Made by a program: the position numbers and the translations under genes. A stretch of 12,539 nt of DNA, from the IMG/VR virus record IMGVR_UViG_2529293139_000012; one strand, 5' to 3'. Below the pieces are notes generated by a model. That model was not told the origin of the DNA. It saw nothing but the letters and a program-made list of their open reading frames with translations, and did no database searches. Numbering within the stretch: position 1 is the stretch's first letter; each line of letters starts with the position of its first letter. The DNA is from a virus. Its lineage: Duplodnaviria > Heunggongvirae > Uroviricota > Caudoviricetes. Below are positions 1,598-12,539 of the stretch, in pieces.

Positions 1598-1673
1598 GGC
1601 CCTTTAGCTCAGTGGTTAGAGCAGGCGACTCATAATCGCTTGGTCGTTGGTTCAAACCCAACAGGGGCCACCA
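1598..1673 (+). tRNA. tRNA with CAU anticodon, most similar to enterobacterial tRNA-Ile2 (lysidine-CAU, ileX/ileY-like); elongator tRNA-Met not excluded
   Basis: 76 nt, GGCCCTTTAGCTCAGTGGTTAGAGCAGGCGACTCATAATCGCTTGGTCGTTGGTTCAAACCCAACAGGGGCCACCA. Acceptor stem GGCCCTT/AGGGGCC pairs, anticodon loop CT-CAT-AA, T-loop TTCAAAC, encoded CCA. D-arm and anticodon arm match E. coli tRNA-Ile2 as I recall it; T-arm differs. Confidence 0.9.
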
Positions 1674-1681
1674 TATCTATC

Positions 1682-3137: not shown

Positions 3138-3220
3138 ATGAAAATGCAAAAACTAGCTTTTTCCGCGCCGTTCCCGCCCCGTGGCAGGCCACCTCACCGG
3201 GAGGACCCACCCAAAAAAGG
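3138..3220. repeat. Copy 1 of a GC-rich ~75-80 bp conserved non-coding element, upstream of the small terminase operon
   Basis: Near-identical to 6487-6560 (ATGAAAATGCAAAAAC.AGC.TTTTTCCGCGCCGTTCCCGCCCCGTGGCAGG.CAC..CACCGGGAGGACCCA). The plus-strand ORFs over the two copies share nucleotides but diverge in frame after about 5 codons, so the conservation is not protein-coding. Confidence 0.75.
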
Positions 3221-3254
3221 CGACTGTCACTATTGTTTATGCTCCATGAGCGAC

Positions 3255-3293: not shown

Positions 3294-3965
3294 TCAGCGA
3301 CCAATCACCACAATCTGGCCGCCATCCCCTTCATCTGCCGTGCTGATCTCTTGCGAAATCACCCGCGACCCGACGCGCATTTCACCGTACAGAACAGGCA
3401 GAACATTGCCCTGGGCAACCATGTTATCCAGTGAGGAGAAATAGGTGTTCTGCTTACCGTTATCCGTTGTCTGTGTACGGGGAGTTCTGGCTTTCGGTGC
3501 CAGCATCTGCGCCACACCACCGAGCACCATACTGGCACCGAGAGAAAACAGGATGCCGGTCATACCACCGGCCCCAATGGCTGCCCCCCATGCTGCAAGG
3601 GTGGCTCCGGCGGTAAAGAATGATCCGGCAATGGCGGCAGCCCCCAGGACAATCTGGAATACGCCACCTAACTTGGCCCCGGCGACTCTGGGAACAATAT
3701 GAATCACAGCGCCATCAGGCAGAGTCTCATGTAACTGCGCCGTTAACCCGGACGTGCTGACGTCCCGCCCGGCAATCCGTACCTGATACCAGCCGTCGCT
3801 CAGTTTCTGACGAAACGCCGGGAGCTGTGTGGCCAGTGCCCGGATGGCTTCAGCCCCCGTTTTCACACGAAGGTCGATGCGGCGACCAAATCGTTGTAAA
3901 TCCCCGTAAAGGCAGATGCGTGCCATGCCCGGTGACGCCAGAGGGAGTGTGTGCGTCGCTGCCAT
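3294..3965 (-). CDS. Lambda gpI-like tail assembly protein (223 aa)
   Basis: Intact ORF with purine-rich stretch upstream of the ATG. N-terminal 'MAATHTLPLASPGMARICLYGDLQRFGRRIDLRVKTGAEAIRALA', a Gly/Ala-rich hydrophobic middle and C-terminal '...VVIGR' match my recollection of lambda tail assembly protein I. It is flanked by a capsid gene and a terminator rather than K and J homologs. Confidence 0.65.
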   Translation of the reverse strand: MAATHTLPLASPGMARICLYGDLQRFGRRIDLRVKTGAEAIRALATQLPAFRQKLSDGWYQVRIAGRDVSTSGLTAQLHETLPDGAVIHIVPRVAGAKLGGVFQIVLGAAAIAGSFFTAGATLAAWGAAIGAGGMTGILFSLGASMVLGGVAQMLAPKARTPRTQTTDNGKQNTYFSSLDNMVAQGNVLPVLYGEMRVGSRVISQEISTADEGDGGQIVVIGR

Positions 3966-6174: not shown

Positions 6175-6273
6175 AGCAACTTCCTCTGACTGACTAAACT
6201 ATGCACATTATTGATCGATAAAAGTGGTAAATAAACATATTTCTATCATAAAAACAGATTAATTAGATTCAGA

Positions 6274-6299
6274 CACAAAAAAGCCGGAGAAAATCCGGC
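6274..6299 (-). terminator. Rho-independent terminator on the minus strand, upstream of the capsid operon
   Basis: GCCGGA-gaaaa-TCCGGC hairpin followed on the minus strand by TTTTTTGTGT. Confidence 0.65.
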
Positions 6300-6486
6300 A
6301 TAAATATCCCGCCATCTGAACACGTTTTGACACAGGCAACTCCACCTGGCAGGTGAAAAACAGATTTATTTATATATTTCAATTAATTGCAAACTGGTCT
6401 AATGACAGGGAGAAAAAAATATTGTACAGGTGAAAACAGAAATAACTTTTAATTATCAATAAATTATCACACATGCTGCCGCCGCC

Positions 6487-6560
6487 ATGAAAATGCAAAA
6501 ACCAGCCTTTTTCCGCGCCGTTCCCGCCCCGTGGCAGGTCACTACACCGGGAGGACCCAT
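6487..6560. repeat. Copy 2 of the GC-rich conserved non-coding element, upstream of the capsid operon
   Basis: Aligns with 3138-3220 over about 75 nt with a handful of substitutions and a 1 nt indel. Confidence 0.75.
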
Positions 6561-6582
6561 AAAAAAGCCGGATTGCTCCGGC
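6561..6582 (-). terminator. Rho-independent terminator on the minus strand, between the putative ori and repeat copy 2
   Basis: GCCGGA-ttgc-TCCGGC hairpin followed on the minus strand by T6. Confidence 0.6.
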
Positions 6583-6713
6583 TTCTGTTACTCGTTGCTT
6601 AAAACGGTATGTTATCCCCGTACGGATCATCATTCCCCGCCTGTTGTTTTGGTGTGCTTCGCTGTCATAGGCTTTATCTCACAGCAGTAAATTAAAATTT
6701 TTGCGTTTTAACC

Positions 6714-9732: not shown

Positions 9733-9915
9733 ATGCAAGAAGAAAATGTGAAACCAAAATTTGATCGCTCCGGCAGCACAAAGAAAAACATCCGCTTCGA
9801 AGACACATTGTTGCAACAAATTAACGAAGTTGCTGGGCCTGGTAATTTCAGCTCATGGGTAAAAAATGCTTGTCGTGATAAGCTACGCAAAGAAGGCATA
9901 GAACCCAAAGGCTGA
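9733..9915 (+). CDS. Small putative regulatory/DNA-binding protein (60 aa), possibly YlcI/YnfO (DUF3950)-like
   Basis: The only plus-strand gene in the island; followed by a plus-strand terminator and preceded by the operator pair. 'NIRFEDTLLQQINEVAGPGNFSSWVKNACRDKL' resembles the DUF3950 pattern as recalled (low certainty). Weak ribosome binding site. Confidence 0.45.
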   Translation: MQEENVKPKFDRSGSTKKNIRFEDTLLQQINEVAGPGNFSSWVKNACRDKLRKEGIEPKG

Positions 9916-10055: not shown

Positions 10056-10265
10056 TTACACCGTCTGCGTTCTGCGAGTGGATGCAAGATAAGCATCGAG
10101 ATCAGTGCGCATATACAGCACTTTGCGACCAAGCTTATGGAAAGGGATTTTTACCTTGCCAGTACACGCCCAGTTCGCCAGTGTTTGATTGTTAACGCCA
10201 AGGTAGGCAGCAGCTTCAGCACGTGTAAGGCGGTCAGTTGATAAATCAGATTTCTTTAAATTCAT
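10056..10265 (-). CDS. AlpA/excisionase-family HTH DNA-binding protein (about 69 aa)
   Basis: Start taken at ATG 10263-10265 (MNLKKSDL); the ORF-track form starts 3 codons earlier at a GTG. HTH 'LTRAEAAAYLGVNNQTLANWACTGKVKIPFHKLGRKVLYMRTDLDAYL' has the Xis/AlpA architecture. Confidence 0.6.
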   Translation of the reverse strand: MNLKKSDLSTDRLTRAEAAAYLGVNNQTLANWACTGKVKIPFHKLGRKVLYMRTDLDAYLASTRRTQTV

Positions 10266-10407
10266 ATCTATCACCGTGTACGTCTAAGTAACAACGGTGA
10301 TAAATATCAATCAATGAGTATTTTGTTTTTAGCCCAATAGCCAGTTGCTGTGGGGCTGTTACCAGTTATTTAGCCTCAATAGCCAGCTATTAAAATACCG
10401 TAGCCAG

Positions 10408-11133
10408 CTATTGGGGGTGAACAAGCTCAAACGAAGAGTATTTATCAGGCTTTGGTGGTTGTGCCCCTGATTCTTTAATCCATCTATCTAGCGTGTTTTT
10501 ACTTACTTTCCCATGGTAGTAAACAGAAAGCTCGTTCAATAAACCTGTTTTACTGGCTTTAGGGTACTTTTCCCATGTTAGTTTAATTACGTGCATAACT
10601 TCATTGTAATAATGATTTCTTGGTTTGCGCGCTTTTTCTTTCTGTGATAAGGATAAAGCATCCTTTATTTTTTTATCTTTTTCATGGTTCGATATAATTT
10701 CTTCAAAAAAATCATTAAGCAATAACTCAACACCAACTCTAGTAAGTTTGTCTGCGTGATTACGCATTCCGACATGGTACAATGCAACTGCTGAATTTAA
10801 AGTATCGACAACCTGACAAGATAGTTTACTATCAAATATTAAAAAACCACACGAATCAATTTTTGCAGCTAATTCAATAGGATATTGCTCGATTTCACTT
10901 GATTCTAAACCATAACACAAAAGAAATTCTCTTGTTGGATATTTTGATTTATAAAAATAATCTCTTATATCATCAATCAAGCGTTTTATAGCCTCTATGG
11001 TGGAGTTTCTCGGGGATAAAGATACAGGAACGTTTAAAACTGAAGATTCTCGCCCACCAGTAATTAAATCATTCATAACCGAATAAATAATATATTGTTT
11101 GACCGATATATTGTTATCATCCATATATGTCAT
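10408..11133 (-). CDS. AT-rich hypothetical protein (241 aa), candidate accessory/cargo gene
   Basis: ORF overlapping the integrase 3' end by 17 nt. Visibly much more AT-rich than the island genes on either side, with Lys/Asn/Ile/Tyr-rich codon usage. No recognisable catalytic motif; the C-terminus (KNTLDRWIKESG) may be HTH-like. Confidence 0.55.
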   Translation of the reverse strand: MTYMDDNNISVKQYIIYSVMNDLITGGRESSVLNVPVSLSPRNSTIEAIKRLIDDIRDYFYKSKYPTREFLLCYGLESSEIEQYPIELAAKIDSCGFLIFDSKLSCQVVDTLNSAVALYHVGMRNHADKLTRVGVELLLNDFFEEIISNHEKDKKIKDALSLSQKEKARKPRNHYYNEVMHVIKLTWEKYPKASKTGLLNELSVYYHGKVSKNTLDRWIKESGAQPPKPDKYSSFELVHPQ

Positions 11134-12539
11134 TCTTTTCTTGTACTATAGCAAATAGTAAACGACGTTTTTCATCATCACTCATGCCCTCCAGTGCGGA
11201 AAGCAATTGCGCATCGATAGATTTTTTACTCTCCACCAGCCCGGCATGTTCCTGAATTGCCCGTTCTATCCGTGACGCTGGCTCCAGCAATTCATCAGCA
11301 CCAAAATGTAAATACCCCTGCGTTACGTCAGCACTTCGCATAGTACGGTGATTCATCAGGCGCTTGAGGATGTAATTGCCCACGCCCACCAGTTCGGCAA
11401 CCGTTCCGAACGTCCGGCGCGCATCGTGCCATTTGAATGGTACAGGGGAGAGCATTTCATCGTTCGACTCTGAAACGGTAGCCGCGCTTATCCGGTCTAT
11501 GATGTGCCGTGTCTCCTGAATAACGCCCTTCACACCAGGAAACACCAGCACATCATCAGCAGCTTTGTTTTTTAGCCTGCGAAGAAACATTTTCCGCAAC
11601 GTATCAGTGATCGGCAGTTCAAGCGGATCCCCGTTTTTCGTGGTGTCTATCCAGAAAAAAACGACCGCCCATATTCACGCGATCCCACGTAAGGCCAAAA
11701 ATTTCTGATTTCCTCAGTCCGGTAAAAAGCGCCATTTCCACGGCATCGCATACCGTCACCGCTATATCATCCCTTTCCTGTTCGCCCTGGTCGCGCACAG
11801 CAGCTACAGCAGCAAACCAGCGGGGAAAATCATGCAGGCGGATACGTTCCGTTTTTCTTACCGTTCCGTGCCACTGGCGCTTGGTGCTCAGTACCAGAGT
11901 CGGCGGATCCGGTAAAAGAGTATTACCCGCATCATCACGGTAATGATCATGCGCAAACCGACACACAGCACGTAGCGCACGCGCCCATAAATCGGCCTGT
12001 GCCTTGCTTCCTGTACCAACCCCAGCCCGTAACGTGGTTTTATCAGCACCGAACCATACAGCCCCATCAGTGATGGCCTTATGCCGTTGTTCCACCCGTT
12101 CGCGGGAAATACTGGCGAGGGTATGGGCCATCCAGTCACCGGAATAATTCTGTAATATGCTGCGGTACTGTTTTTCTGTGGCGGGTTTCAGGCGGTGGCC
12201 ACGATTTTTTACGTAGGCGTCAATCGCCTCACTCAGCGTTATCATGGCCTTGTTGTTAGTGCGCTTTGCTATGTTCGGATTTATCCCCGTTGTGGCGACT
12301 TCGCCAAGGAGTTCCATAGCTTTAGCCCTGGCATTATCCACGCTCAGATCAGGAAAACGCCCCAGCGTTGCACGAATAAATTTTCCGTTACGCTTACGGG
12401 AAATGCAGAAACTTTTCACACCAGACGAACCTACACGGACACGCAGCCCGTTAACCTCCGTATCACCATATTCGACCTGTCCATGTTCCGGCGTTGGCAG
12501 TTCTGCAATTTTTACTTTAGAGAATCTGAATAATTTCAC
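11117..12539 (-). pseudogene. Tyrosine site-specific integrase (P4-like family), interrupted by a frameshift in an A7 run at 11655-11661; N-terminus runs off the window
   Basis: The 306-aa upstream frame carries the first Arg box (TGLRKSEIFGLTWDRV); the 160-aa downstream frame carries HDARRTF and the catalytic Tyr region (RSADVTQGY). Removing one base from the homopolymer joins them as ...GRFFWIDTTKNGDPLELPITDTLRKMFLRRLK.... Confidence 0.85.

What the first reader, a model, noticed from the sequence alone, without database searches (positions are those of the whole stretch)
10408..11133. AT-rich cargo gene wedged between integrase and the AlpA-type gene
The gene stands out in composition from the rest of the island and has no recognisable domain. 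It sits at the integrase-proximal position where satellites often carry accessory loci such as anti-phage or regulatory functions; a repressor role is also possible.
Basis: partly seen in the sequence, partly recalled or inferred. Interest (0 to 1): 0.65.

Follow-up and report, generated by a model that had tools for sequence, protein, structure and literature searches.

The report
Hypervariable DNA-binding regulator candidate beside satellite integrase
The AT-rich gene is not random cargo but one allele of an unannotated, fast-evolving gene found at this exact position in a whole clade of enterobacterial phage satellites, and it most likely encodes the DNA-binding switch that decides when the satellite's activator gene alpA turns on.

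Summary
There is a real 238-aa gene on the minus strand (10408-11124; the longest ORF runs to 11133). Its GC is 33% against 49% for the rest of the island, and it has no Pfam, NCBIfam or PADLOC hit.

The "cargo" reading does not hold. In 15 of 15 related islands from E. coli, Salmonella, Klebsiella, Citrobacter, Rouxiella and Serratia, a homologue sits in the same place. Its start overlaps or abuts the integrase stop, and the AlpA-like gene follows 110-150 nt downstream.

The family has about 170 clusters at 50% identity, is all "hypothetical", and has no phage homologue. Each protein has a hypervariable acidic N-terminal domain. After it come a conserved helical stalk and a basic C-terminal three-helix (winged-helix-like) domain.

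Four dyad-symmetric sites lie between the gene and alpA, spaced 20-21 bp apart. Their positions are conserved, and their sequence changes with the allele of this protein, not with AlpA or the integrase. Gene, sites and alpA 5' end swap as one cassette between islands that are otherwise 97% identical.

Best reading: an allele-specific transcription factor controlling alpA, analogous to Stl and possibly the helper-phage sensor. This is computational inference only.

The parts
10408..11124 (-). Gene X: 238-aa protein of an unannotated family (WP_000342570.1). The longest ORF starts at 11133, but homologues align from the ATG at 11124, which overlaps the integrase stop codon by 8 nt.
10825..11124 (-). 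Codons 1-100: hypervariable acidic N-terminal domain. It is all-alpha in this allele and alpha/beta in the KFu023 allele. No fold match was found.
10630..10824 (-). Codons 101-165: conserved helix (LNSAxxLYxxGMxNxADxL) followed by a 45-residue helix. This is the 'stalk' and may be the dimerisation element.
10411..10629 (-). Codons 166-238: conserved basic arm (KxRKPRN), a three-helix helix-turn-helix (helices 173-186, 192-202, 209-218) and a conserved tail (PPKPDKYSSFELV). This is the putative DNA-binding domain.
10400..10411 (-). Site 1: ATAGCTGGCTAC, which overlaps the stop codon of X.
10379..10390 (-). Site 2: ATAGCTGGCTAT, a 12-bp palindrome (ATAGC-N2-GCTAT), 21 bp from site 1.
10358..10369 (-). 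Site 3: ATAACTGGTAAC, 21 bp from site 2.
10337..10348 (-). Site 4: GCAACTGGCTAT, 21 bp from site 3. Its core lies 79 nt upstream of the alpA ATG, as in 8 of 9 islands.
10264..10307 (-). alpA leader hairpin that sequesters the alpA Shine-Dalgarno sequence (GGUGAU) and the AUG.
10056..10265 (-). AlpA-like HTH_17 gene, the presumed regulated target.
10188..11144 (.). Cassette (X, the intergenic region and the first ~26 codons of alpA) that is replaced as a unit between this island and the otherwise 97-98%-identical KFu023 island.
11117..12539 (-). P4-type tyrosine integrase (Arm-DNA-bind_3 plus Phage_integrase), upstream of X and overlapping it. In this window it is split by one extra A at 11655.

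Best explanation
Gene X encodes an allele-specific, sequence-specific DNA-binding transcription factor that belongs to the backbone of this clade of enterobacterial phage satellites (PICI and capsid-forming PICI type). It is made together with the integrase, because its start overlaps the integrase stop. It probably dimerises through its long helix. Its basic C-terminal helix-turn-helix domain probably binds four dyad-symmetric sites, spaced two helical turns apart, between its own stop codon and the alpA promoter. In this way it would set whether alpA, the activator of the satellite cycle, is transcribed. The hypervariable N-terminal domain is the input module. The most likely input is a helper-phage (or competing-element) protein, by analogy with Stl of staphylococcal islands. 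X, its sites and the alpA 5' end are exchanged between islands as one specificity cassette, like an immunity region. What is shown: synteny, domain architecture, hypervariability, the site array and its co-variation with X, and the cassette swap. What is inferred: DNA binding, the sign of regulation (I lean to repression in the quiescent state, but the sites lie upstream of the likely -35, which would equally suit an activator), and the nature of the signal.
For: - **Synteny.** The order int -> X -> 110-150 nt -> HTH_17/AlpA is conserved in 15 of 15 places across six genera (49/58, 55-57, 67-69, 98). X overlaps the int stop by 4-19 nt in most islands and starts 2 nt after it in the Rouxiella island.
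- **Charge.** The C-terminal part has a median pI of 9.8 (range 9.3-10.1) in all 60 members. The N-terminal part has a median pI of 4.85.
- **Weak domain hits.** The only Pfam hits at E<1e-3 among 133 divergent members are HTH_32 and HTH_Tnp_Tc3_2.
- **Site array in the window.** There are four ARCTGGYWA sites at exactly 21-bp spacing, found only in this intergenic region. Across the 18.5-kb locus there are 5 matches, against 1.3 expected by chance.
- **Site array across islands.** The same four positions (about 3-5, 24-25, 45 and 65-66 nt after the X stop; the last is 79 nt before the alpA ATG) hold sites in 8 of 9 distinct islands. The CCAG/CTGG core occurs 22 times against 4.0 +/- 2.0 expected (0 of 5000 shuffles).
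- **Co-variation.** The site sequence changes with the type of X C-terminal domain. AlpA's HTH (for example L002 vs L019, or window vs L007) and Int (94-96% identical) stay the same.
- **Cassette swap.** Window and KFu023 are 96-98% identical except for 10188-11144.
- **Hypervariability.** Pairwise medians are Int 75%, AlpA 75%, X C-terminal part 35% and X N-terminal part 25%. L012 and L014 share Int 93%, AlpA 99% and X C-terminal part 86%, but X N-terminal part only 29%.
- **N-domain replacement.** The N-domain fold differs between alleles, all-alpha versus alpha/beta.
- **Selection within the allele.** pN/pS is 1.17 for codons 1-100 and 0-0.07 for the rest.
- **Literature.** In Gram-negative PICIs a global repressor is 'unclear', and the helper signal that switches on alpA is unidentified (PMC6092414).
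Against: - There is no experimental evidence of any kind.
- The co-variation of sites with X could partly reflect physical linkage, because the sites abut the 3' end of X.
- The CCAG core was chosen after looking at the sequences. One island (L016) lacks it, although it has other repeats.
- No sigma-70 consensus promoter was detected in the intergenic region. The sites lie upstream of the only weak -35/-10 candidate, which is not the usual position for a simple repressor.
- The prototype EcCICFT073 appears to have alpA directly after int (alpA precedes 'ORF3'), so X cannot be a universal Gram-negative PICI regulator.
- The pN/pS figures rest on 23 substitutions.
Confidence: 0.5

Rival explanations
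1. X is accessory cargo with an anti-phage or host-benefit function. The variable N-terminal domain would be an effector or phage-recognition module in an arms race, and the conserved C-terminus a common scaffold.
For: - The N-terminal domain is hypervariable, with within-allele pN/pS near 1.
- The gene is AT-rich.
- Satellites are known to carry defence genes, a point made in the abstract of PMC10085698.
- The gene has no known function.
Against: - There is no PADLOC hit.
- The same family occupies the same position in 15 of 15 islands, instead of unrelated genes replacing each other.
- No enzymatic or effector domain appears in 193 members scanned.
- The conserved part looks like a DNA-binding domain and sits next to a phased site array.
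- The island's real variable slot is elsewhere.
Confidence: 0.12
2. X is an accessory factor of the integrase: an architectural or directionality protein made by translational coupling with Int. It would assemble on DNA to assist or bias integration and excision rather than regulate transcription.
For: - The X start overlaps the int stop in most islands, so the two are co-produced.
- Phased repeats at 21-bp spacing resemble the arrays bound by excisionase-type proteins.
- The C-terminal domain is basic.
Against: - The site array lies more than 2 kb from the att core (window 1628-1677, with the attR copy beyond the integrase). No copies of the sites occur near att or upstream of int.
- The AlpA/HTH_17 protein already fills the excisionase niche (PMC10111431).
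- Int is 94-96% identical where X is only 25-33% identical, so a tightly co-adapted partnership is unlikely.
Confidence: 0.12
3. X is a satellite-versus-satellite immunity or exclusion determinant. It would shut down alpA of an incoming island of the same type, so that the different alleles let several satellites live in one cell without cross-talk. Helper-phage sensing would lie elsewhere.
For: - The regulator and its sites swap as a cassette, as lambdoid immunity regions do.
- E. coli genomes often carry several related islands. Places matching this window range from 1 to 17 per genome, with a median of 4.
- There are at least three X types on near-identical backbones.
Against: - This explains variation in the DNA-binding domain and its sites. 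It does not explain why the N-terminal domain varies further while the DNA-binding domain and sites stay fixed (L012 vs L014; window vs P0003).
- It is not exclusive of the best explanation.
Confidence: 0.15
4. The ORF is a chance reading frame in an AT-rich spacer.
For: AT-rich sequence has few stop-free frames by chance, and the gene is annotated only as 'hypothetical'.
Against: - The family has 105 clusters at 90% identity and 169 at 50%.
- The AF2 models are confident.
- pN/pS is 0.24 overall and 0-0.07 in the conserved half.
Confidence: 0.01

Closest known systems
Stl / Rpr master repressors of SaPIs and other Gram-positive PICIs
   Same: [quoted passage not shown] Both are highly divergent between otherwise related islands. 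Both combine a helix-turn-helix DNA-binding module with a variable partner-binding module. Both are proposed to gate the island's excision and replication programme (PMC6092414).
   Different: No sequence or fold similarity was detected. From my own knowledge, the domain order is reversed: Stl has an N-terminal HTH, while X has a C-terminal one. X is co-directional with its presumed target rather than divergent from it. Its sites form a four-site phased array upstream of the promoter. The sign of regulation and any phage ligand are unknown.
Immunity regions of lambdoid phages (cI-operators-cro cassettes)
   Same: The regulator gene, its cis sites and the start of the neighbouring regulatory gene are exchanged as one block between genomes that are otherwise near-identical.
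   Different: The protein family and the gene order are different. There is no sign of a LexA/cI-type cleavage domain. Here the N-terminal domain is swapped independently of the DNA-binding domain.
Homeodomain-like / transposase-type HTH domains (Pfam HTH_32, HTH_Tnp_Tc3_2; Hin and resolvase DNA-binding domains)
   Same: Both have a basic arm followed by three short helices, with a 'T-[LI]-x-[RK]-W-[IL]-K' recognition-helix pattern. One divergent family member hits each Pfam model at E=5e-4 and 8e-4. There is also a weak hit to the HTH region of an ISNCY transposase.
Integrase-proximal defence hotspots of P4-like satellites
   Same: The gene is adjacent to a P4-type integrase in a phage satellite, and it is AT-rich and variable.
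   Different: A hotspot holds unrelated gene sets, whereas here one homologous family always occupies the slot. No defence model matches. This island lacks the P4 markers psu, delta and sid, and it matches the tRNA-Ile2 PICIs carrying a CLP_protease-capsid gene that are described in PMC10111431.
AlpA / Vis / HTH_17 excisionase-type regulators
   Same: Both are small DNA-binding regulators of satellite induction encoded just downstream of int.
   Different: X is not a member. It has no HTH_17 or Phage_AlpA hit, it is three times larger, and the island has its own HTH_17 gene immediately downstream.

Membership tests
Variable accessory (cargo/defence) slot of a satellite | Related islands carry unrelated genes at the same position | tested here: not met
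   All 15 places examined carry a homologue of the same family between int and the HTH_17 gene (49/58, 55-57, 67-69, 98).
Variable accessory (cargo/defence) slot of a satellite | Match to a known defence protein model | tested here: not met
   PADLOC gave 0 families at E<=1. No defence-related Pfam domain appeared in 193 members.
Stl/Rpr-like satellite master regulator (functional class) | Contains a sequence-specific DNA-binding domain | tested here: inconclusive
Stl/Rpr-like satellite master regulator (functional class) | Cognate operator sites lie between the regulator gene and the regulated promoter | tested here: inconclusive
   Four phased dyad sites co-vary with the X type. Binding itself was not tested.
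Stl/Rpr-like satellite master regulator (functional class) | Activity is switched by direct binding of a helper-phage protein | not testable with these tools
   The only evidence is indirect: a hypervariable N-terminal domain that is independently swapped.
Stl/Rpr-like satellite master regulator (functional class) | Sequence homology to Stl/Rpr (XRE-type HTH) | tested here: not met
   No HTH_3/XRE or any repressor family hit in Pfam, PHROGs or NCBIfam.
Homeodomain-like transposase-type HTH (Pfam HTH_32 / HTH_Tnp_Tc3_2) | Score above the Pfam threshold | tested here: not met
   The window protein has no hit. One of 133 representatives hits each model at E=5e-4 and 8e-4.
Gram-negative PICI / cf-PICI satellite (the element that carries the gene) | int, an alpA-like gene and a primase are co-oriented, with late or capsid genes downstream, and the element is inserted at a specific att site | tested here: met
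   The genes are int, HTH_17, a D5_N/Pox_D5 primase and a ClpP-capsid fusion, all on the minus strand. The tRNA-Ile lies at 1598-1670. A 50-nt att repeat was found. The element matches the tRNA-Ile2 PICIs of PMC10111431.

The most novel reading that the evidence does not exclude
X is the missing helper-phage sensor of a large clade of Gram-negative PICIs and capsid-forming PICIs. Its interchangeable N-terminal domain would bind a specific helper-phage protein. That event would release or activate a tetramer-of-dimers array on the four phased sites and switch on alpA. Each allele would then define which phages can induce the island. This would be a functional analogue of Stl that evolved independently, on a new fold.
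Probability: 0.25. Interest if true: 0.8.

Novelty: new variant of a known kind. Interest (0 to 1): 0.6.

Why it matters
How helper phages switch on alpA in Gram-negative PICIs is an acknowledged open question. PMC6092414 says a global repressor is 'unclear' and the inducer is 'under study'. This finding supplies three testable things for one widespread clade of satellites, including capsid-forming and prophage-embedded ones in E. coli, Salmonella and Klebsiella:
- a concrete candidate protein;
- its candidate operators;
- natural allele swaps.

If confirmed, the X allele would predict helper range and compatibility between co-resident satellites. The family would also deserve a name and a Pfam model. 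If X is instead an effector, it is still an unannotated and rapidly diversifying satellite protein.

Tried and rejected
- **Protein family searches found nothing significant.** This covers Pfam, PHROGs, PADLOC and NCBIfam on the protein and on 60 and 133 family members. PHROG 5215 (unknown function) matched 12 members.
- **PDB sequence-profile searches were empty.** Both the full-length profile and the C-terminal profile found nothing.
- **tblastn against 50,697 phage records found no match**.
- **The genome-contig scan was limited.** It failed with the 60-sequence alignment and returned only one locus with the 13-sequence alignment. I therefore took genomic context from the look-up of encoding contigs.
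- **YfjH is unrelated.** This is the gene between intA and alpA in K-12 CP4-57. It lies on the opposite strand and gave hhalign probability 0.5%.
- **Tandem Repeats Finder does not see the site array**, because only 9-12 nt of each 21-nt unit are conserved.
- **The sigma-70 consensus scan finds no promoter in the X-alpA spacer**.
- **Literature searches found nothing on this protein.** I searched for the accession and for a regulator between int and alpA. EcCIMP1_002, the gene between int and alpA in another PICI, is a different, much smaller protein.
- **Readings I rejected.** A chance ORF is ruled out. Integrase arm-type sites are ruled out because Int stays constant while the sites change. 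AlpA operators are ruled out because the AlpA HTH stays constant while the sites change.

Full report
**1. Where the window comes from**

The window is E. coli chromosome. It matches strains L73 and PK5074 at 99.98%, differing from L73 by one substitution and two 1-bp indels.

It covers most of an ~11-kb phage satellite inserted at a tRNA-Ile gene (1598-1670). A 50-nt att repeat lies at 1628-1677, and its partner lies just beyond the integrase, outside the window.

All core genes are on the minus strand. The only exception is YlcI/YnfO, on the plus strand at 9733-9915:
- P4-type integrase (11117-12539)
- the gene in question (X)
- an HTH_17/AlpA-like gene (10056-10265)
- an Icd-like gene
- a DUF4222 gene
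- a D5_N/Pox_D5 primase
- a ClpP-protease/major-capsid fusion
- tail-gene remnants
- a DUF1441 gene

This matches the 'tRNA-Ile2 PICIs bearing a CLP_protease gene' described in PMC10111431.

**2. The observation**

The ORF at 10408-11133 is real. Homologues and RefSeq start at the ATG at 11124, giving 238 aa. That start overlaps the integrase stop by 8 nt.

GC content:

| Region | GC |
|---|---|
| Gene X | 33.2% |
| X, codons 1-154 | 30.7% |
| Integrase | 50.7% |
| Rest of the island | 48.7% |

No Pfam, PHROG, PADLOC or NCBIfam family matches.

Low GC is shared by every allele of the family that I measured (34-38%, against 49-52% for the neighbouring integrases). It is therefore a family trait and not a mark of recent insertion.

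**3. Backbone gene, not cargo**

This exact allele occurs in only 24 of 5426 complete E. coli genomes. Closely related islands carry a different 'hypothetical' gene at the same spot, and that gene is a distant homologue (26% identity over 170 residues).

Family size:
- A profile search found 105 clusters at 90% identity. All named members are Enterobacterales, all are unnamed, and none has a Pfam domain.
- An exhaustive HMMER scan of 1.84 billion representatives found 169 clusters at 50% identity.
- No phage record encodes a relative.

I examined 15 places (49/58, 55-57, 67-69, 98). They span E. coli, Salmonella, Klebsiella, Citrobacter, Rouxiella and Serratia, and include one distant member at E=2e-14. 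The arrangement is always the same:
- integrase, with X overlapping its stop by 4-19 nt in most islands and starting 2 nt after it in the Rouxiella island;
- a 110-150-nt spacer;
- the HTH_17 gene, which went uncalled in L023 but is present;
- then primase and capsid genes.

Some of these satellites are capsid-forming PICIs, and some are embedded in prophage late regions.

The island's real variable slot is at window ~6264-6692. There KFu023 carries a HEPN gene.

**4. Architecture of the protein**

Alignments show a strongly conserved C-terminal ~85 residues, with the consensus K-A-x-K-P-R-N-x-Y-Y-N-E-V-M...T-W-E-K-Y-P-K-A-S...N-T-L-x-R-W-I-K-E-S-G...P-P-K-P-D-K-Y-S-S-F-E-L-V. There is also a conserved helix around residues 103-127 and an N-terminal ~100 residues that barely align.

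AlphaFold2 (pLDDT 84.4) gives helices at 8-26, 39-59, 63-71, 75-80, 83-91 and 103-117. A single 45-residue helix follows at 121-165. The terminal three-helix unit spans 173-186, 192-202 and 209-218, and a short beta-bridge ties it to the tail.

Structure searches found no full-length match:
- Foldseek against PDB and BFVD found nothing significant.

The C-terminal part is basic in all 60 members (pI 9.3-10.1). The N-terminal part is acidic (median pI 4.85).

Among 133 divergent representatives, the only Pfam hits at E<1e-3 are HTH_32 and HTH_Tnp_Tc3_2, with one member each. This agrees with the arm-plus-'TLxRWIK' pattern but does not establish membership.

A model of the KFu023 allele (pLDDT 82.9) has the same stalk, HTH and tail. 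Its N-terminal domain is alpha/beta with three strands, not all-alpha. This points to domain replacement, not just divergence.

**5. Hypervariability**

Median pairwise identity across ten islands:

| Protein or region | Median identity |
|---|---|
| Int | 75% |
| AlpA | 75% |
| X, C-terminal part | 35% |
| X, N-terminal part | 25% |

Other comparisons point the same way:
- In E. coli tRNA-Ile2 islands whose integrases are 94-96% identical, three X types share only 25-33% identity.
- L012 and L014 share Int 93%, AlpA 99% and X C-terminal part 86%, but X N-terminal part only 29%.
- The last ~75 residues of P0003 are identical to this allele, while its overall identity is 49%.
- Within this allele (96.8% DNA identity to strain 06-00048), pN/pS is 1.17 for codons 1-100, 0 for codons 101-165 and 0.07 for codons 166-238. 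The overall value is 0.24, and the counts are small.

**6. The cis elements**

Between the X stop and alpA lie four copies of ARCTGGYWA at exactly 21-bp spacing: 10400-10411, 10379-10390, 10358-10369 and 10337-10348. The best copies form the palindrome ATAGC-N2-GCTAT. These sites occur nowhere else in the island or its flanks apart from one chance match.

Other islands have sites at the same positions, about 3-5, 24-25, 45 and 65-66 nt after the stop. The last site is 79 nt before the alpA ATG in 8 of 9 islands. The sequences differ between islands:
- AATCCAGTTT / AACCAGATAT...ATATCTGGTT in type B;
- ACCCGGATAT in Serratia;
- AGCCAGGG/CCCCTGGCT in the OkiPb01694 type;
- CATATCA...TCTGA in L023.

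The CCAG/CTGG core is enriched. It occurs 22 times against 4.0 +/- 2.0 expected, and no shuffle out of 5000 reached that count. I chose this motif after looking at the sequences.

The site type follows the type of X C-terminal domain. It does not follow AlpA, whose HTH is identical in L002 and L019 and nearly identical in the window, L007 and L016. It does not follow Int either.

Between the window and KFu023, the only non-homologous stretch in this region is 10188-11144. That stretch is X, the whole spacer and the first ~26 codons of alpA.

**7. A second element, noticed in passing**

An RNA hairpin at 10264-10307 pairs the alpA Shine-Dalgarno sequence and AUG with an upstream arm. Its folding energy is -20.3 kcal/mol, with z = -5.1.

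It is conserved in nine distinct islands. Five of its nine pairs show compensatory changes, and some pairs are G-U wobbles, so it probably acts as RNA.

A weak -35/-10 candidate (TTGATT-17-TTACTT, 10286-10314) would put the transcription start inside the loop. Read-through transcripts from int-X would then be translationally silent for alpA. This is inference only.

**8. Interpretation**

The most economical reading is that X is an allele-specific DNA-binding regulator of alpA, co-expressed with Int, and that its N-terminal domain is an interchangeable input module.

The functional analogy is Stl/Rpr of Gram-positive PICIs and the immunity cassettes of lambdoid phages. There is no homology to either.

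The literature states that a global repressor in Gram-negative PICIs is 'unclear' and that the helper-phage signal inducing alpA is unknown (PMC6092414). I found no paper on this protein.

Caveats:
- DNA binding is inferred from a model and from charge.
- The site co-variation is confounded by physical linkage.
- The sign of regulation is open, because the sites lie upstream of the likely -35.
- EcCICFT073 seems to lack X, so X is specific to this clade.

The rivals are less well supported, and each is discussed in its own section: a defence effector, an integrase accessory factor, and inter-satellite immunity.

**9. Verdict**

The 'cargo' label is rejected. The family is unannotated. I rate it a new variant of a known kind (a satellite master regulator) with moderate-to-high interest, pending a simple EMSA and deletion test.

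Noticed in passing
window 10264-10307 (- strand): A conserved RNA hairpin sequesters the alpA Shine-Dalgarno sequence and start codon. Its energy is -20.3 kcal/mol (z = -5.1), and 5 of 9 pairs show compensatory changes across nine islands. It may silence translation of read-through transcripts from the int-X operon.
   Followed up: partly
window 11655, 8765 and 2764: The window differs from strain L73 at three positions. An extra A in an A-run splits the integrase into two ORFs. An extra T in a T-run truncates the primase N-terminus. A C/T difference removes the internal stop that L73 has in the DUF1441 gene. The two homopolymer indels may be assembly errors.
   Followed up: partly
window ~6264-6692 (between the capsid fusion and the primase): This is the island's real variable slot. 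The otherwise 96-98%-identical KFu023 island carries a 714-nt HEPN-domain gene here (L002 7771-8484).
   Followed up: no
window 3138-3222 and 6487-6570: An ~86-nt direct repeat (89.5% identity) flanks the tail-remnant/capsid block. No Rfam family matches it, and its function is unknown.
   Followed up: no
window 1628-1677 and L001 15718-15767: A 50-nt att repeat (88% identity) overlaps the 3' end of tRNA-Ile. The island therefore extends about 230 nt beyond the window end. Near-identical integrases use both tRNA-Ile2 loci, one next to ypjC and one next to nfeF.
   Followed up: partly
L007 and L008 (Klebsiella): Satellites carrying an X homologue are inserted inside prophage late regions, next to P2-type tail genes and ogr, or next to lysis and terminase genes. 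These are helper-embedded PICIs.
   Followed up: no
window 3294-3965: A lambda-I-like tail assembly gene and a partial tail gene have GC of 59%, well above the island average. This block is absent from the KFu023 island and looks like a captured or decaying helper late-gene fragment.
   Followed up: no
window 9733-9915 (+ strand): A YlcI/YnfO (DUF3950) gene is the only plus-strand gene in the island core. It lies between alpA and the Icd-like gene and faces them.
   Followed up: no
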